From Actinomycetes bacterium (GTDB lineage Bacteria; Actinomycetota; Acidimicrobiia; Acidimicrobiales; Acidimicrobiaceae), in contig JAJZLQ010000081.1 of assembly GCA_021850605.1 (NCBI GenBank), positions 13,679-77,678 on the forward strand: DNA of 64,000 bases, given 5' to 3'. A model generated the notes under the pieces. The model was not told the origin of the DNA. It worked only from the letters and a program-made list of their open reading frames with translations, and searched no databases. Positions 4,210-64,000 of the stretch are shown piece by piece (positions within the stretch are counted from its first letter, which is position 1; each line of letters begins with the position of its first letter). Both the position numbers and the translations under genes were made by a program.

Positions 4210-4284
4210 CGGGGAGTGGCGCAGCGGCAGCGCACCTGGTTTGGGACCAGGGGGTCGGGGGTTCAAATCCCCCCTCCCCGACCA
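4210..4284 (+). tRNA. tRNA-Pro(TGG)
   Basis: Cloverleaf CGGGGAG...CTCCCCG-ACCA, anticodon loop TT-TGG-GA, GTTCAAAT T-loop. Confidence 0.95.
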
Positions 4285-4343
4285 ATGGCCAGGTTGCCTG
4301 GCACGGGGGTTCCGGATGGCCGTCAGGCTAGTATCTGGGAACG

Positions 4344-4418
<75 letters not shown>

Positions 4419-5420: not shown

Positions 5421-5673
5421 GCCGCTACGGATGTTGGCGTGACTCAGTGTGTCGTGTGGTAACGGGTGAATCACTCCTGTTGACGGGTGAGCTGCATCCT
5501 CGGGAACGCCGATGGTGAGGGTGACCACCGGATCCAAATCATGCCCTGTGGTGGGAGTTGCGCCGGTGGTGTTTTGGCCACAGGCGCATAGGCCCCCGCT
5601 CCAGATACTTTTGCGAAGGCATCCCGGGCCGACGTAGCCGCCGCCCAGTACCGGCCACGTGCGCGCCGGCCCG

Positions 5674-55397: not shown

Positions 55398-55472
55398 TGG
55401 TGCGCCCCCTGGGATTCGAACCCAGAACCTGCGGATTAAGAGTCCGTTGCTCTGCCGTTGAGCTAGAGGCGC
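55398..55472 (-). tRNA. tRNA-Lys(CTT)
   Basis: GCGCCTC...GGGGCGC-ACCA, anticodon loop CT-CTT-AA. Confidence 0.95.
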
Positions 55473-55608
55473 ATCGGAACAATTAACTTAGCAGGCAGCG
55501 GCCGGGGGCAGTCCAATCGTCGAAATCGGCAATCATGAAAGCGCCTGTAGGGCGGGTCCTGCGCGCGGGCGCCCAGCGACTCTTACCGATCTTGATGTAA
55601 TGAGGAGT

Positions 55609-55686
55609 TGGGGTGACCGAGGGGACTCGAACCCCCGACCTCCAGGGCCACAACCTGGCACTCTAACCGACTGAGCTACGGCCACC
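55609..55686 (-). tRNA. tRNA-His(GTG)
   Basis: G-1 plus GTGGCCG...CGGTCAC-C-CCA, anticodon loop TT-GTG-GC. Confidence 0.95.
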
Positions 55687-55812
55687 GCGCGCCTACAGCT
55701 TAATCGTGGCGTGACGCGACTCTGGCCAGCGGAGGTGAAGCTTTGGCAACTGAGCGCCGATGCGGCGCCGTCTTTTGGGCGGATGGGCGGACATTAGATT
55801 GGTAACCAACTA

Positions 55813-55885
55813 GCCCCTGTAGCTCAGTGGATAGAGCAACTGCCTTCTAAGCAGCAGGTCGTAGGTTCGAATCCTACCGGGGGCG
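55813..55885 (+). tRNA. tRNA-Arg(TCT)
   Basis: GCCCCTG...CGGGGGC-G, anticodon loop CT-TCT-AA; followed by CAA, not CCA. Confidence 0.94.
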
Positions 55886-59185: not shown

Positions 59186-59415
59186 GTAACGAAGTCCGTT
59201 TTCCGGTGCTTTCCAGTGATCAGGCATCCGAGGGACTGGTGGCCACCTGGTTCGTTGCCGACGGCGAATCCGTCAAGACCGGTCAGCTCATTGCCGAGGT
59301 GCAGGTAGACAAGGTCTCCGCGGAGGTGCAAGCTCCCACGGCCGGTGTCATCCGCATCATTGCAGGGGCACAGGCGACCGTGAAGCAAGAGGCGCTCATC
59401 GCCGTCATCGAATAG
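59182..59415 (+). CDS. free-standing lipoyl-domain protein (77 aa)
   Basis: GESVKTGQLIAEVQVDKVSAEVQAPTAG with lipoyl-Lys in DKV; GTGA overlap with the beta subunit. Confidence 0.92.
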   Translation: MSNEVRFPVLSSDQASEGLVATWFVADGESVKTGQLIAEVQVDKVSAEVQAPTAGVIRIIAGAQATVKQEALIAVIE

Positions 59416-60088
59416 GACCGTTGCGTCCGATTGTGCCGAACGACGGGCGGACTATTTCCACGGGCGTGGCCGGTGCCGAGGTGAAGGTGACGGCTGCGGC
59501 AAGTCGGGTGCCTGGGGAGAAATCCTGCGTCTAATCCCGCTGTGCGTATTTGGGTGCCGCCGTTTCCGACGTCAACGCCGGAGGGAACCACCTTGGGTCG
59601 GGCCGGATCTGTTCGAGTCCGGTTCGAGCCAGAGGGAATCTCTCCTTCGGGTGAACCGGCCGGCGGCCCTTGGCGTTTTCCTGGCCTTACGCCGGGAGAC
59701 TGCGGCGATGACAATTGAGCGATTGATGACCCCGAAGCATGTCCTGCGGACCTCTCAAGCGGCCCGCTTGCAAGCTTTCCGGCCGGGTTGAGGCTGAAGG
59801 CAAAGACCGCCGCCGGCCTTGCTCTTGCTCGCTTCCCGGGAGCTTATGGCCGGGCCCTGGTAGGACGCTGATATGCCGGCTGTGGCGTTCCCGGATTGGA
59901 GGGAACGCGGGTCATCTATTCACGGCTCGTGCAGGCGGTGAGCGGTGTGAAGTGGTGGCCCGCATAGCTCCAGGTGATCATGGCCGGCCTGGCTCCTCGG
60001 ACGTCCCTGCACCGCCCCGTCGAGGGCGGCTATCCTCGCCGAGGCCCCCAGCTTCCCCCTGGCGGCGAATTCGCCGCAGCGGGCGGTG

Positions 60089-61615
60089 TCAATGTGTTTG
60101 GAAAATCCGGTAGTAGAGATCCTCCCCGTTGCTGGTGGGCAGGGGATCAGCCTTCACGAGCTTGTAGGTGCGCCGCCCATTTTCGTTGCGCTCCGCCCGC
60201 ATGAACAGGGCCGTATCGGGGTGTTCGAGTCGCAGGCTTTCCGCCAAATCGTAAAGATGCGTGACATAGACGACCTTTGAACCCGATTCGAGCAGCGCTC
60301 TTACGACCTGCCGTCCGATTTCCGAACCCTCTCGCTCATTGGTCCCGGCGAATGATTCGTTGAAGAGCAACAAGGACTTTGGAGATACCTCGTCGGCGAT
60401 CCGGCCCATCCTGCTCAGCTCTTCGTCAAGGCGGCCACTGGTCATAGACGGGTCTTCCTCTCGAATGAAGTGTGTGAAGATCCCCTTGGCGACTCCGGCA
60501 TCGAAGGACTGCGCCATCACAAACATTCCTGCTTGCATCATGAGTTGAGCCAGCCCGACGCTGCGTAGAAAGGTTGACTTTCCGCCGGAGTTGGGGCCGG
60601 TTATCACCACTAGCGGCTTCCCGTCGGCGTACGCACTGTTGCCCACCACCGGCTGCTCGAGCCGCAGCGCCAGGCATATGTCTCCCAGCTCCATAAAGGA
60701 GAGGCTTGGTGGATCCCAGCTGAGCGGACGAGGGACACAAAAAGTCTCGCCTTTTGCCACCAGGCGATCTCGGAGATTTAGGCACCCTACGTAGAAGCCC
60801 AGCTCCAGCCGGAGCATCGCGAAAAAGCTCCTTATGTGGTCTGCTGACTGCGCGGCCGCGTTGGCCACCAGGTTCAGACCGCGAGCCTCCAGCTCGCCCA
60901 CCGCCTGGGCACCTGCCTCATCACGCGGGGGGATCGAGAACGAGTAGGCATTCCTGGGGCCCAGTCCGAGCCGCTCTCGCCAGGCCGGTCGGCGGCTCCC
61001 GGGTGAGCGCAGGACGTAGTGTACGCCAACGTTCCCACCCCCGAGCTCGGCGCTCATGGTGACTCCGTTCTTGAACCGGAGCTGCTTCAGATGCCGCCTC
61101 ACGGTCTCGAAGTATTCATTGTCAAGCTCGAGCTGAAGCGTGCGGAAAAGATTTGAAAACCCCTCCGACTTGAACTCCGCAGCGTGCTGATCGGCTGTGC
61201 CTCTAACCCGCTTCAGCAGCTCCATGTACATGTCAAGCGCGCGCACTGCGCCTGCGAGTATCGAGGCCGGAAAGTGCGAACTCCAACCCCAAGAGGCCTT
61301 CTTGGGGACGTCCATCGCCTCTGTCGCAATGTCGTAGAGTTCCCGGACCAGTTCGGGTCGAGCAAGGCAATCCGCCAGGACGTGCTGGCGGTAGACGATC
61401 GCGGCTGGGTCATCCAGGCTGGCCAACATTACTCGCATGGCTACTTCGAAGAGGAACCTGTCGCCACGGCTCATGACGTTGAACAGCGTCACCAGCTCCA
61501 GGTCTTGGACGAGGTCGAGTTCGTGGGGCGACAGCTCCTGTTCCAGATCGAGCTTGCGAGGAAGTTCGGCGGGGATTTCGAAGTCGCGGTCTCGATACAA
61601 CAGCAGGGCTTTCAT
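60089..61615 (-). CDS. truncated MutS-family ATPase, subunit B (domains III and V type)
   Basis: TGPNSGGKST Walker A, LLLFNESF Walker B variant, VTHLY, GxR-T-YKL...PLPTS-G; no GxFxE domain. Confidence 0.9.
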   Translation of the reverse strand: MKALLLYRDRDFEIPAELPRKLDLEQELSPHELDLVQDLELVTLFNVMSRGDRFLFEVAMRVMLASLDDPAAIVYRQHVLADCLARPELVRELYDIATEAMDVPKKASWGWSSHFPASILAGAVRALDMYMELLKRVRGTADQHAAEFKSEGFSNLFRTLQLELDNEYFETVRRHLKQLRFKNGVTMSAELGGGNVGVHYVLRSPGSRRPAWRERLGLGPRNAYSFSIPPRDEAGAQAVGELEARGLNLVANAAAQSADHIRSFFAMLRLELGFYVGCLNLRDRLVAKGETFCVPRPLSWDPPSLSFMELGDICLALRLEQPVVGNSAYADGKPLVVITGPNSGGKSTFLRSVGLAQLMMQAGMFVMAQSFDAGVAKGIFTHFIREEDPSMTSGRLDEELSRMGRIADEVSPKSLLLFNESFAGTNEREGSEIGRQVVRALLESGSKVVYVTHLYDLAESLRLEHPDTALFMRAERNENGRRTYKLVKADPLPTSNGEDLYYRIFQTH

Positions 61616-63198
61616 CGGCTGAACCTTTCCCTAAGTCGCTCGTAGGTGACGCCGTGTTTTTCGGCGATCGCCATCGCGTAGGCCAAGCCGTTTGCATCTC
61701 CCCGAACAACCTTGTAGGTGCGTACCGCCGGGTCCTCGGGAACAATGGTCGAGATCATGCTGACCGTCTTGGGCAAAGTGGCCAGCTCGTCGATGAAGGT
61801 GACGTAGACGGCGAGGAGGTCGAGTTCGATGATCCGCTCGAGCATCCGCTGACCAAGAAAACGCGCATCGTGGAGCGTGGTCGAGCTGAACACCTCATTC
61901 AGCACGATGATGCTTTGGCTGGTCGCGGCCGACAGCGTCTCATGGATCCGCAGCAGGTCTGTCTCGAGCTTTCCGGCCAGGTTGTCGAGGTCCTCCTCTT
62001 TCTCGAACTGGGTGAAGAGCTGGTCGAAGTGGAATAGCCTGGCCCGCTTGCCCGGGACCGGGCAGCCAATGTTCGCCAAATGGTGCAATTGGGCAAAGGT
62101 GCGCGCGAAGGTCGTCTTGCCTCCCTGATTCGGTCCCGAGACGATGATTATGCGCTCCGGGTCCTTCAGGAAGAAGTCGTTTACCACGACGTTGTTCTGG
62201 GATCCGAGCTTGTTGGCCAGAGCGAGGTCGAAGGTGGCTTCCGCGAAGACCTCTTTGGACTGGTCCGTGACCTCCGGAAAGCAGAAGGGCAGGCCTGACG
62301 ATCCGATCGGCGCCAGGAATTCAAGGTAGGCGAGGTAGAACTGGACCTCCCGGTCGAAGACGTCGATCCTGGTATCGCGGAAATCGGCGTACTGGAGGCA
62401 GTATTTGTCGAGCGGCTCGAAGACTTCCGGGAAGAGTTTCGCCACCTGCTCGCTGATTTGGGCCTCGACGTGATTCATCTCGGGCAGATCACGGAATGCA
62501 ACCCGGTAATCCTTGGCGGCTCCACGCTTGAACCGATCGAAGGTCTGGAGGATCTCGGCGCTATAGTCCGACTCGCCTTCGTACCTGCTTACGGTTACGC
62601 GGCTGCCCTGGATTGTTACCAAGTAGACGACTCGGGCCAGATCTTCCACGCGCTGACGGGTGTCATCGGCCAGGTTCCGAAACTTCTCCGAGCTCACGTA
62701 GTCGTCCAAGCAGCGAAGGAAAGACTTCAGTCCCTGCGAGTGCAAATCCGAACCGGAAAGGACGCCCTGAAGGGTGGCTACGGCTTCGCAGTACGTTTTT
62801 GCGGCGTCGAGGAAGAAGCCCTCCCTTTGATACTTGTAGCGGACGGCGTGTGCGCCTCGCAAGTAAGAGCGCATCTTGCGCATCTGGGCGCCGAACCTCT
62901 GAACGCCGGAAATGAGGCTGCGGTCCTGGAGATCGCGGAAGATCTCCTGGCGGTAGGAGATCGTTTCCAGGTCCGGCGCCTTGGAGTAGAAGAAGGCGGC
63001 GAGGTCGTATTCCTCACGGCCCTTGCACAGGGACTCGAGCACCTGTCCCAGGTTTGAGTCCGTGAAGTACGGAGGCGGACCGGGCACCTCCTGTCCGCTC
63101 GCGTGCCCGTCGTACATCAGACTTGCAAAGGGCCTGACTCGTGAGTCGTCCTGGATAATTGGCAAACCGGCGGCGTCAGGAATCTTTGGAACGCTCAT
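61612..63198 (-). CDS. truncated MutS-family ATPase, subunit A
   Basis: SGPNQGGKTT Walker A, IVLNEVFSST Walker B variant, RTYKV...AYAMAIA. Start moved to ATG 63198; ATGA overlap with subunit B. Confidence 0.9.
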   Translation of the reverse strand: MSVPKIPDAAGLPIIQDDSRVRPFASLMYDGHASGQEVPGPPPYFTDSNLGQVLESLCKGREEYDLAAFFYSKAPDLETISYRQEIFRDLQDRSLISGVQRFGAQMRKMRSYLRGAHAVRYKYQREGFFLDAAKTYCEAVATLQGVLSGSDLHSQGLKSFLRCLDDYVSSEKFRNLADDTRQRVEDLARVVYLVTIQGSRVTVSRYEGESDYSAEILQTFDRFKRGAAKDYRVAFRDLPEMNHVEAQISEQVAKLFPEVFEPLDKYCLQYADFRDTRIDVFDREVQFYLAYLEFLAPIGSSGLPFCFPEVTDQSKEVFAEATFDLALANKLGSQNNVVVNDFFLKDPERIIIVSGPNQGGKTTFARTFAQLHHLANIGCPVPGKRARLFHFDQLFTQFEKEEDLDNLAGKLETDLLRIHETLSAATSQSIIVLNEVFSSTTLHDARFLGQRMLERIIELDLLAVYVTFIDELATLPKTVSMISTIVPEDPAVRTYKVVRGDANGLAYAMAIAEKHGVTYERLRERFSR

Positions 63199-64000
63199 GG
63201 TGTCTCCGGCGTCCAGGGCGGGCCAAGAGACGAGAGCAGCGCGGTCGTGGCTGGAACGGGAGGATCGATTTGGCGGCGCTGCTGATGTCGCCTGATGCTG
63301 GCGACGGTTGGGAGTGCTTCGGGTCGGACGCCGGTCTGGGCCGGAAAAGAAGCAGCCCGCAATTCCGGCTTGTCCAGCCGCAGGGACCTGGTCTGCCGAT
63401 TGGCTGTGCAGACGGCATACGGAGGTGGCGGCAGGGGTATCTTGGTCGCGCACGTAGTCGCCAAACATGAACCCGGCAGCGGCGGACCAAGGGCGGCACC
63501 AGTCGATGCGTCTGCGGCACGGATCCAATTCGGAGCGGCGCTGCTATGTCGCCCAGACGATTGGATGACTGGTTCGCTTTCGAGCCTCACGGAGGTGGGG
63601 AAAAGCCGAGAGCAATCCGGGGTTGATTCCAGCGACCGGTCATTTGGAATCTTCACTGCATCTCTCCTGCCAAACGAACTTGTCACTTGGTAGGAGCCAT
63701 CACCCTTGCGGGGCTTTAGTGGCGAGCTCCATCGCCGTTATGAGCCATGATAGTGCGCTTCGGCGCCTCGACCAAGGGCTTGCGATCCGCCCTGACCGGC
63801 AAGCACGTGGTTTCGACCAAATCGCCGGGGTTCGTCTCGGGCGCGGATTGACGTCGCCGGCCCGCCGCACCTTGGTGGAAGGAGAATGTGAGACGGTATT
63901 TATGTGCGTTGGCCTTGCTCCGGCCGGCCCGCTGCTGACAATTGGTTCCCGATTACCGGGCCCTTCGAGTCGGCTCCCTTGGCGCCAGGCGCGACGCACT

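What the first reader, a model, noticed from the sequence alone, without database searches (positions are those of the whole stretch)
60089..63198. Coupled pair of truncated MutS ATPases, both with Walker B D-to-N: candidate heterodimeric system unrelated to mismatch repair
Seen: two paralogs (528 and 508 aa) joined by an ATGA overlap. Both have intact Walker A (GPNQGGKT, GPNSGGKS) but NE instead of DE in Walker B (VLNEVF, LFNESF). The signature regions are atypical (GKLETDL, GRLDEEL). Neither has a GxFxE mismatch-binding domain or an Smr/HNH nuclease, and there is no mutL in the window. Known: Actinobacteria generally lack MutS/MutL and use NucS; tandem overlapping MutS-like pairs were noted in phylogenetic surveys (MutS4A/B type) without a known function; MutS2 shows the fold can act on stalled ribosomes or recombination intermediates. 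Inferred: an obligate heterodimeric ABC-type switch with slow or partner-triggered hydrolysis, acting in stress response, anti-recombination, ribosome quality control or defence. This is the strongest candidate for an undescribed system here.
Basis: partly seen in the sequence, partly recalled or inferred. Interest (0 to 1): 0.78.

Follow-up and report, generated by a model that had tools for sequence, protein, structure and literature searches.

The report
Fluoride-switched MutS4A/MutS4B ATPase gene pair

Summary
There are two minus-strand genes, 61612-63198 (528 aa) and 60089-61615 (508 aa), joined by an ATGA overlap. Each has only MutS domain V by Pfam. Both have an intact Walker A and Asn-Glu in Walker B.

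They are not an undescribed system. They carry the published hallmark of the MutS4A/MutS4B subfamily (Lin, Nei & Ma 2007): the stop codon of A overlaps the start codon of B.

This genome has only two such switches. The other one precedes crcB-crcB.

In 80 homologous loci from many bacterial and archaeal phyla:
- 67 keep the 4-nt overlap.
- Walker B Asn-Glu is invariant (80/80 in A, 68/68 in B).
- A always has Phe where B keeps the H-loop His.
- 50 of 77 assessable loci have a fluoride riboswitch directly upstream.
- Neighbours are typical fluoride-regulon genes (enolase, pyrophosphatase, CrcB, DUF190, Na+/H+ exchanger).

Predicted folds keep the MutS lever, clamp and ATPase domains. 23 of 30 host genomes also carry canonical MutS, so the pair does not replace mismatch repair.

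Best reading: a fluoride-induced, asymmetric heterodimeric MutS-core clamp ATPase. Its substrate is inferred to be DNA and is unproven.

This clade also has an unusual 460-790 nt open but non-coding-like leader ORF that links the riboswitch to MutS4A.

The parts
63747..63752 (-). -10-like hexamer TATCAT immediately 5' of the riboswitch (putative promoter element)
   Evidence: Read from the sequence. The block CTATCATG is identical in all five members of this clade. The consensus sigma-70 scan found no full promoter, so this is an inference.
63684..63745 (-). Fluoride riboswitch aptamer (crcB motif, RF01734)
   Evidence: Rfam cmscan gives 46.3 bits against a gathering score of 34, E 1e-9 to 2e-10, over the full model 1-64. 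My own model R1 gives 65.4 bits. It is one of only two in the genome; the other precedes crcB-crcB.
63664..63696 (-). Expression platform: a hairpin in which the aptamer's 3' pseudoknot strand CUCCU(A)CCAAGUGA pairs with UCGUUUGG(C)AGGAG, sequestering the Shine-Dalgarno AGGAG (63664-63668)
   Evidence: The hairpin is in both the MFE and centroid folds. The stretch is 100 % conserved in the window, L004, L006, L007 and L008. No terminator-like site follows the aptamer. The switching itself is inferred.
63195..63655 (-). Leader ORF (GTG 63655, 153 codons, TGA 63195-63197 overlapping the MutS4A ATG). It is open but not protein-like and C-rich (C/G 1.41).
   Evidence: The GTG lies 8 nt after the SD. 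It is in frame with an uninterrupted ORF ending in ATGA in all four distinct relatives, with 152-262 codons after the GTG. There is no codon periodicity in composition or in substitutions. Dinucleotide shuffles stay open in 8 %, 2.9 %, 2.0 % and 0.9 % of trials. The DNA is confirmed by an independent assembly.
61612..63198 (-). MutS4A (528 aa): MutS core/lever, clamp and ATPase domains. Walker A GPNQGGKTT (62110-62136), Walker B N434-E435 (within 61888-61905), GKLETDL in place of the MutS S-T-F motif (61954-61974), H-loop position Phe468 (within 61786-61803).
   Evidence: Its own SD GGAGAC lies 3 nt before the ATG.
60089..61615 (-). MutS4B (508 aa): same architecture. Walker A GPNSGGKST (60572-60598), Walker B N419-E420 (within 60350-60367), GRLDEEL (60416-60436), H-loop His453 retained (within 60248-60265).

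Best explanation
The locus is a fluoride-inducible operon: promoter, fluoride riboswitch, long leader ORF, mutS4A, mutS4B.

Shown:
- The two proteins carry the defining signature of the named MutS4A/MutS4B subfamily.
- Each keeps the MutS lever, clamp and ABC-type ATPase domains but lacks the mismatch-reading and connector domains.
- Both have Asn instead of the Mg2+-coordinating Asp in Walker B, and this is invariant across phyla.
- A has Phe where B has the H-loop His.
- The pair sits behind a fluoride riboswitch here and in about two thirds of homologous loci, usually inside clusters of other fluoride-riboswitch genes.

Inferred:
- A and B form an obligate asymmetric heterodimer with one degenerate site (on A) and one more competent site (on B).
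- With weakened Mg2+ coordination, it works as a slow ATP-gated clamp or switch rather than a fast motor.
- It is made only when cytoplasmic fluoride rises. This organism lives in mine drainage, and low pH drives HF into cells.
- It most likely clamps nucleic acid, probably DNA at stalled or branched replication and recombination intermediates, under fluoride poisoning of Mg2+-dependent enzymes.

In this clade the switch appears to be translational. Fluoride binding frees the SD of a leader ORF. Translation of that ORF then reaches MutS4A through an ATGA overlap, and may also shield a C-rich leader from Rho. MutS4A is coupled to MutS4B by a second ATGA.
For: Identity:
- Pfam finds MutS_V only.
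- ATGA overlap equals the published MutS4 signature (PMC2190696; PMC5742357).
- 67 of 80 loci keep the same overlap.

Fold:
- AF2 pLDDT is 84.9 for A and 87.9 for B.
- Foldseek aligns 470-585 columns to MutS, MSH and MutS2 chains, TM-score (query-normalised) up to 0.60-0.62.

ATP site:
- Asn-Glu is invariant, 80/80 and 68/68.
- Asn aligns to the Walker B Asp of MutS2 and MSH3; Phe (A) and His (B) align to the H-loop His.

Regulation:
- RF01734 at 46.3 bits.
- The genome's only other copy precedes crcB-crcB.
- 50 of 77 assessable loci have a same-strand riboswitch within 900 nt upstream, median gap 111 nt. 7 more have one farther upstream, and 37 loci have two or more.
- Neighbours: enolase 14 loci, PPase 10, CrcB 6, DUF190 17, Na+/H+ exchanger 8, Usp 8.
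- The crcB motif was reported upstream of 'mutS' genes in 2010.

Not mismatch repair: 23 of 30 host genomes also have MutS domain I.

DNA link (weak):
- The M. yongonense MutS4 operon raised recombinant yield about 2.5-fold in M. smegmatis.
- rarA in the P. putida crcB operon matters for fluoride tolerance.

Leader.

Habitat.
Against: - No experiment links MutS4 to fluoride tolerance, and none shows what it binds.
- No transcript data were found for this locus.
- Heterodimer formation could not be modelled; no multimer prediction was available.
- The conserved clamp-region motifs are not clearly basic (B has an invariant R-D-E-x-G motif), so DNA binding is not evident from sequence.
- 14 of 77 loci have no riboswitch within 5 kb. 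The pair is also patchy even within the genus, 5 of 12 genomes.
- MutS4A has its own good SD, so leader-ORF coupling may be unnecessary. The window's own leader stays open in 8 % of shuffles.
Confidence: 0.6

Rival explanations
1. Ribosome or translation quality control, like MutS2. Fluoride-metal complexes trap translational GTPases, ribosomes stall or collide, and the MutS4 heterodimer senses or splits them.
For: The best sequence match among solved structures is the MutS2 core (7vuf; E 3e-27 for A, 7.5e-21 for B). Foldseek also hits the MutS2-disome complex 7qv3. The MutS2 precedent shows that the fold can act on ribosomes (established knowledge).
Against: There is no KOW or Smr domain. No ribosome-related gene recurs among neighbours. 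MutS1 and MSH structures match the fold equally well.
Confidence: 0.13
2. An ATP-driven reactivase or chaperone for fluoride-poisoned Mg2+ enzymes such as enolase or pyrophosphatase, analogous to the MutS-type ATPase KamC that reactivates lysine 5,6-aminomutase. No nucleic acid is involved.
For: B scores 72.6 bits against NCBIfam KamC, about equal to its MutS2 score. Enolase and pyrophosphatase genes recur next to the pair, in 14 and 10 of 80 loci.
Against: The KamC match covers only the ATPase domain and is far below the family cut-off of 300 bits. No single enzyme is a constant neighbour. The window itself has no such neighbour. The lever and clamp typical of nucleic-acid-encircling MutS proteins are retained.
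Confidence: 0.12
3. A substitute mismatch-repair sensor for a lineage that has lost all known mismatch repair.
For: The whole family of this genome lacks NucS (0/25) and MutS domain I (0/41 in the order), and the genome lacks MutL. MutS4B is enriched in that family, 12/25 against 1/16 (Fisher p=0.006, not corrected for phylogeny).
Against: There is no mismatch-binding domain I. The pair is present in only half of the family's genomes. It coexists with canonical MutS in 23 of 30 carriers elsewhere. A fluoride-gated switch is an odd control for a housekeeping fidelity function.
Confidence: 0.06
4. Anti-phage or anti-plasmid defence ATPase pair.
For: Patchy, HGT-like distribution. Only weak P-loop-level PADLOC hits.
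Against: No PADLOC hit is better than E 5e-4, and all cover only the P-loop. Neighbours are fluoride-regulon genes, not defence genes. Control is by a fluoride riboswitch.
Confidence: 0.03
5. A and B act as independent homodimers that are merely co-expressed.
For: Bacterial MutS and MutS2 are homodimers (established knowledge). Each protein has complete Walker A and a catalytic Glu.
Against: Overlap and co-occurrence are strictly conserved. The complementary H-loop asymmetry (Phe in A, His in B) is fixed across phyla. No solitary A or B was seen among intact loci; the apparent exception L005 is a frameshifted A.
Confidence: 0.05

Closest known systems
MutS4A/MutS4B subfamily (Lin, Nei & Ma 2007, Nucleic Acids Res 35:7591, PMC2190696; mycobacterial MutS4 operon, Kim et al. 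2017, PMC5742357)
   Same: Two adjacent MutS paralogues with only the C-terminal MutS ATPase region recognisable by sequence. The stop codon of A overlaps the start codon of B. Distribution is patchy and HGT-like in bacteria and archaea, and the function is unknown.
   Different: Nothing essential differs; this is a member. Added here: the fluoride-riboswitch context quantified over 80 loci, invariant Walker B Asn, the H-loop Phe/His asymmetry, predicted lever and clamp domains, and a clade-specific long leader ORF.
Fluoride riboswitch regulon (crcB motif RF01734; Weinberg et al. 2010, PMC2864571; Baker et al. 2012 Science, recalled from memory, not held in the library)
   Same: The aptamer scores above the Rfam threshold in the 5' region of the operon. 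'mutS' genes were already listed among crcB-motif-associated genes. Neighbours in related loci are the classic regulon members.
   Different: Most described fluoride riboswitches use an overlapping terminator. Here the platform looks translational (SD sequestration) and is followed by a 460-nt open leader ORF before the first real gene.
MutS2 (Thermus thermophilus core 7vuf; Bacillus subtilis MutS2-disome complex 7qv3)
   Same: Lacks mismatch-binding domain I, keeps core/lever, clamp and ATPase, and is the closest solved relative by sequence.
   Different: MutS2 is a homodimer with Walker B Asp-Glu and has C-terminal KOW and Smr nuclease domains. MutS4 is a two-gene pair with Asn-Glu and no KOW or Smr.
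E. coli MutS D693N mutant (PDB 3k0s)
   Same: It carries the same Walker B Asp-to-Asn change that MutS4 has naturally. The structure appears among the fold matches. From memory, that mutant loses Mg2+ coordination and is locked in its ATP-switch behaviour (Lebbink et al. 2010).
   Different: It is an engineered single-site mutant of a homodimeric mismatch sensor. Its biochemical behaviour is recalled and was not tested here.
Eukaryotic MSH heterodimers (MSH2-MSH6, MSH2-MSH3)
   Same: Paralogous MutS subunits forming an asymmetric heterodimer with non-equivalent ATP sites. They are the top Foldseek matches (8r7v, 8olx).
   Different: MSH proteins keep domains I and II and Walker B Asp, and they act with MutL homologues in mismatch repair.

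Membership tests
MutS4A/MutS4B subfamily | Both proteins contain the MutS C-terminal ATPase (MutSac / domain V) | tested here: met
   PF00488 at 63.3 and 76.1 bits, cut-off 30.2
MutS4A/MutS4B subfamily | No MutS-I or MutS-II domains | tested here: met
   No Pfam hit. Fold matches begin at the core/lever domain.
MutS4A/MutS4B subfamily | Two adjacent genes, with the stop codon of A overlapping the start codon of B | tested here: met
   ATGA at 61612-61615. The same overlap occurs in 67 of 80 homologous loci.
MutS4A/MutS4B subfamily | Clusters phylogenetically with the named MutS4A and MutS4B reference sequences (Thermoplasma, Ferroplasma, mycobacteria) | not tested
   No reference sequence from the 2007 or 2017 papers was fetched. 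Assignment rests on architecture, the overlap signature and the A/B paralogue split.
Canonical MutS (MutS1) mismatch repair | N-terminal mismatch-binding domain I (Phe-X-Glu) | tested here: not met
   No PF01624 in the proteins or anywhere in the genome or its order.
Canonical MutS (MutS1) mismatch repair | MutL partner in the genome | tested here: not met
   No MutL_C in the genome, which is 91 % complete.
Canonical MutS (MutS1) mismatch repair | Walker B Asp-Glu | tested here: not met
   Asn-Glu in both proteins, invariant in homologues.
MutS2 | C-terminal Smr nuclease (and KOW) domain | tested here: not met
   No Smr or KOW hit in Pfam. NCBIfam mutS2 scores 54-73 bits against a cut-off of 400.
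Fluoride riboswitch (RF01734) | Covariance-model score at or above Rfam's gathering threshold over the full model | tested here: met
   46.3 bits against 34, model positions 1-64.
Fluoride riboswitch (RF01734) | Located in the 5' region of genes on the same strand, with an expression platform | tested here: met
   Minus strand, upstream of the operon. An SD-sequestering hairpin is predicted and conserved in the clade.
Fluoride riboswitch (RF01734) | Binds fluoride and switches expression | not testable with these tools
   Needs in-line probing or a reporter assay.
Known anti-phage defence systems (PADLOC) | Significant match to a defence-system protein model | tested here: not met
   The best hits have E 5.7e-4 to 0.06 and cover only the P-loop.

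The most novel reading that the evidence does not exclude
MutS4A/B may be a fluoride-proof ATP switch. By replacing the Mg2+-coordinating Walker B Asp with Asn in both subunits and the H-loop His with Phe in one, the heterodimer could bind ATP with little dependence on Mg2+. It would then escape trapping by ADP-Mg-fluoride complexes and could keep clamping and protecting stalled replication or recombination intermediates (or another target) while ordinary Mg2+-dependent NTPases are poisoned.

In this clade, its synthesis would be gated by a three-step translational relay: riboswitch-controlled leader ORF, then A, then B. The relay could also act as a Rho-sensitive transcriptional check.
Probability: 0.2. 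Interest if true: 0.75.

Novelty: new member of a known kind. Interest (0 to 1): 0.4.

Why it matters
MutS4A/B is very widespread. There are at least 8000 sequence clusters, found in Actinomycetota, Chloroflexota, Acidobacteriota, Proteobacteria, Bacteroidota and Nitrososphaerales archaea, with about 45-60 % identity across phyla. Yet it has had no assigned function since 2007.

Its tight association with the fluoride riboswitch gives a concrete, testable condition under which it should matter. The invariant Asn and the Phe/His asymmetry give precise mutants to make.

This particular copy adds little beyond a clean example. It does show that the fluoride regulon of a small acid-mine-drainage actinobacterial genome consists of just crcB-crcB and mutS4AB. 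It also sits in a lineage with no recognisable mismatch-repair system, and it has an unusual long leader ORF between switch and gene.

Tried and rejected
- **Leader as a real protein gene:** rejected. There is no Pfam hit, no codon-position GC bias, no third-position bias in substitutions, in contrast to MutS4A, and no conservation between the window and its relatives beyond the first 20 nt.
- **Conserved third protein partner:** rejected. No neighbour family is consistently adjacent to A or B. Genes flanking the window's pair are unrelated metabolism: His phosphatase, E1 dehydrogenase, glycerol-3-phosphate oxidase.
- **Defence system:** PADLOC gave only P-loop noise.
- **Transcript evidence:** three metatranscriptomes from the same study hold nothing real from this locus. 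The single 18-nt pieces are spurious.
- **Consensus promoter and terminator scan:** no promoter, and terminator-like sites no more than in shuffles.
- **Literature:** no paper in the held library links fluoride and MutS4 functionally. Baker et al. 2012 could not be opened.
- **Multimer modelling of A-B against A-A:** not possible with the tools. Only monomers were predicted.
- **My model R1:** it used the pseudoknot helix as its structure, which was not ideal. It nevertheless reproduced all Rfam-verified hits in the benchmark loci.
Full report
**Observation**

The minus strand carries two long ORFs. The other runs 60089-61615 and gives 508 aa. The junction reads AGCCGATGAAAGCC, so the ATG of the second gene overlaps the TGA of the first.

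Pfam finds only MutS domain V in each protein (63.3 and 76.1 bits), with no MutS_I, MutS_II, Smr or HNH. NCBIfam gives sub-threshold hits to MutS1, MutS2 and the MutS-type reactivase KamC, limited to the ATPase region. PADLOC gives only P-loop noise.

The window lies in a 2.56-Mb, 154-contig, 91 % complete genome. That genome has no other MutS_V, no MutL_C and no NucS_C.

A note from an earlier scan of other genomes said that MutS4 pairs often sit behind fluoride riboswitches. I treated this as a lead and tested it.
- Rfam finds a fluoride riboswitch (RF01734, 46.3 bits, gathering 34, full model) at 63684-63745 on the minus strand, upstream of the first gene.
- The whole genome has exactly two such riboswitches. 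The other one precedes a crcB-crcB pair on another contig.
- In this organism the recognisable fluoride regulon is therefore the fluoride channel genes plus this MutS-like pair.

**Is it a known family?**

[quoted passage not shown] Kim et al. (2017) used the same signature for mycobacterial MutS4 (PMC5742357). Weinberg et al. (2010) already listed 'DNA repair (mutS)' genes among those downstream of the crcB motif (PMC2864571).

The pair is thus a member of a named but functionally uncharacterised family. Its link to the fluoride switch is published at the level of a gene list. I did not build a tree with the 2007 reference sequences, so that membership criterion is untested.

**Comparative evidence**

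The second protein has at least 8000 homologous clusters. The top hits are 58-63 % identical across Acidimicrobiales, Streptosporangiaceae and Dormibacterales.

A scan of one genome per species returned 80 loci. They come from Actinomycetota, Chloroflexota, Acidobacteriota, Alpha- and Betaproteobacteria, Bacteroidota, Spirochaetes, Nitrososphaerales and others.

In these loci:
- 67 have exactly the 4-nt overlap.
- Walker A Lys is invariant.
- Walker B is Asn-Glu in 80/80 A and 68/68 B sequences.
- The MutS 'S-T-F' trans motif is replaced by G-K-L-x-x-[DE]-L-x-R.
- At the H-loop position A has Phe in 79/79 sequences, while B has His in 65/67.
- A and B profiles align over 440 columns (hhalign probability 100 %, 20 % identity), so they are old full-length paralogues.

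It also adds a fixed asymmetry of the kind seen in heterodimeric ABC-type ATPases that have one degenerate site.

**Structure**

AlphaFold2 models built from 63-row alignments are confident: pLDDT 84.9 and pTM 0.83 for A, pLDDT 87.9 and pTM 0.86 for B.

Foldseek against the PDB aligns 470-585 columns to MutS, MSH2/3/6 and MutS2 chains, with E down to 1.6e-17 and query-normalised TM-scores up to 0.60-0.62. The roughly 300 N-terminal residues that sequence methods cannot assign are therefore the MutS core/lever and clamp domains. Only domains I and II are missing.

By sequence, the closest solved relative is the Thermus MutS2 core (7vuf). The engineered E. coli MutS D693N structure (3k0s) is among the matches. 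It carries the same Asp-to-Asn change. From memory, it loses Mg2+ coordination and behaves as a locked ATP switch; this was not tested here.

**Fluoride context elsewhere**

Rfam on 12 loci found the riboswitch directly upstream of A in 7. I then built a covariance model from 16 Rfam-verified copies and ran it on all loci. At E<=1e-3 it found 120 copies in the 80 loci (828 kb).
- 50 of 77 assessable loci have a same-strand copy within 900 nt upstream of A (median gap 111 nt).
- 7 have one farther upstream.
- 6 have one only elsewhere in the locus.
- 14 have none.
- 37 loci hold two or more copies and 16 hold three or more.

Clustering of neighbouring ORFs, followed by Pfam annotation, gave these recurrent neighbours:

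| Neighbour | Loci (of 80) |
|---|---|
| Dynamin-like GTPase | 22 |
| DUF190 | 17 |
| MFS transporter | 14 |
| Enolase | 14 |
| Inorganic pyrophosphatase | 10 |
| Na+/H+ exchanger | 8 |
| Usp | 8 |
| NADH-dehydrogenase/hyf-type subunit | 7 |
| CrcB | 6 |

Most of these are classic fluoride-regulon members. None is consistently fused or adjacent to the pair, so A-B is a self-contained module.

**Relation to mismatch repair**

- 23 of 30 carrier genomes also encode MutS domain I. The pair therefore coexists with canonical mismatch repair and does not replace it.
- In the window's own lineage, no genome of the order has MutS domain I (0/41), and no genome of its family has NucS (0/25).
- MutS4B is present in 12 of 25 family members, 5 of 12 in the genus, and 1 of 16 in other families of the order.
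- The enrichment is real in a raw count (p=0.006) but is confounded by phylogeny and habitat. A gene present in only half the family cannot be its general mismatch-repair system.

**Regulatory anatomy in this window**

A conserved TATCAT hexamer (63747-63752) precedes the aptamer.

Directly after the aptamer, the 3' pseudoknot strand CUCCUACCAAGUGA can pair with UCGUUUGGCAGGAG. This hides the SD AGGAG (63664-63668). The hairpin appears in both the MFE and centroid folds, and the stretch is identical in all five clade members. No terminator follows. This is the layout of a translational ON switch.

The SD serves a GTG at 63655, and what follows is unusual.
- Instead of MutS4A, there is a 153-codon ORF that ends in a TGA (63195-63197) overlapping the MutS4A ATG.
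- In the four distinct relatives of this clade (window, L004/L008, L006, L007) the leader is 458-788 nt long. Between the window and the others it is largely unalignable.
- In every case the conserved GTG is in frame with an uninterrupted ORF ending in the same ATGA.
- The ORF has no codon-position GC bias and no third-position excess of substitutions, unlike MutS4A in the same genomes. It has no Pfam hit.
- Dinucleotide-preserving shuffles leave the frame open in 8 %, 2.9 %, 2.0 % and 0.9 % of trials.
- The RNA is C-rich (C/G 1.41 in the window).

My reading is moderately confident. The leader is kept translatable for the act of translation, not for its product. That would relay the riboswitch decision to MutS4A by coupling, and perhaps by shielding a Rho-loading region. 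MutS4A has its own SD (GGAGAC), so this relay is not proven necessary. In most other lineages the riboswitch sits about 20-300 nt from A, without such a leader.

**Function**

What is shown: the pair's identity, architecture, conserved active-site changes, asymmetry, fluoride-riboswitch control and independence from canonical mismatch repair.

What is inferred:
- The proteins form an obligate heterodimer.
- The Asn weakens Mg2+ coordination and slows hydrolysis, so the complex acts as an ATP-gated clamp.
- Its target is nucleic acid, most likely DNA at stalled or branched intermediates.

Support for the DNA target is thin:
- The lever and clamp are retained.
- Expression of a mycobacterial MutS4 operon raised homeologous recombinant yield about 2.5-fold (18.3 against 7.3 colonies per trial) and lengthened tracts.
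- rarA, a fork-associated ATPase gene in the P. putida crcB operon, is important for fluoride tolerance by Tn-seq.

Ribosome rescue (by analogy with MutS2) and enzyme reactivation (by analogy with KamC) remain open rivals. Defence and mismatch-repair substitution are unlikely.

**Ecology**

The sequence is held in mine-drainage, tailings, coal and aquifer metagenomes. An independent assembly reproduces the pair and the leader without differences. Low pH drives HF into cells, so fluoride stress is plausible in this habitat. Many other carriers come from peat, acid soil or acidophile lineages, judging by record titles and by the Thermoplasma and Ferroplasma examples. No transcript data could be found.

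**Verdict**

This is a real, well-conserved operon. It is an ordinary member of the known MutS4A/MutS4B family under the known fluoride riboswitch.

The open question of what MutS4 does under fluoride stress is of real interest and is now sharply testable. However, it is not specific to this window, and earlier follow-ups in this scan reached the same point.

The clade-specific leader ORF is the only feature that looks new.

Noticed in passing
window 63195-63655 (-); also L004:3927-4421, L006:4222-5004, L007:1949-2740: There is a long open leader ORF (153-263 codons) between the fluoride riboswitch's SD/GTG and the MutS4A ATG, ending in an ATGA overlap. It is open in all four distinct clade members. 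It shows no coding signature in composition or substitutions and is C-rich. It may be a translation or Rho relay.
   Followed up: yes
whole genome G000 and 40 relatives: The genome's entire family (25 genomes, one of them a single 99 %-complete contig) has neither NucS nor MutS domain I, and the window's genome has no MutL. The lineage therefore appears to lack every known post-replicative mismatch-repair system.
   Followed up: partly
L029:3162-4946, L005:1583-4096 and 20 further loci: A dynamin-like GTPase (PF00350, about 595 aa) is the commonest neighbour of MutS4 pairs (22 of 80 loci). 7 of 24 copies have their own fluoride riboswitch. In L029 it ends 19 nt before MutS4A with no riboswitch in between. 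It may be an unrecognised fluoride-regulon member.
   Followed up: partly
G000:C82:10470-11782 (loci L087-L089): The genome's only other fluoride riboswitch precedes two tandem crcB genes, consistent with a heterodimeric Fluc-type channel.
   Followed up: partly
L017, L038, L074, L026, L049 and others: Some MutS4 loci are dense 'fluoride islands', with three or more riboswitches (up to five) within about 11 kb, on both strands.
   Followed up: partly
L005:4465-5977: In this metagenome contig MutS4A is split by a frameshift near 5483-5499. It is either a pseudogene or an assembly error. The gene caller therefore reported only a 123-aa fragment before MutS4B.
   Followed up: partly
window 55401-55885: Three tRNA genes are clustered here (one on the + strand, two on the - strand), between the CoA-transferase/HMGL genes and the E1 dehydrogenase genes. 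Two more tRNAs lie at 4210-4415.
   Followed up: no
window 59739-60113 (+) and 59283-59714 (-): Two ORFs with no Pfam match lie just downstream of MutS4B. The + strand ORF converges on and overlaps the MutS4B stop by 25 nt. No terminator-like site was found between them.
   Followed up: no
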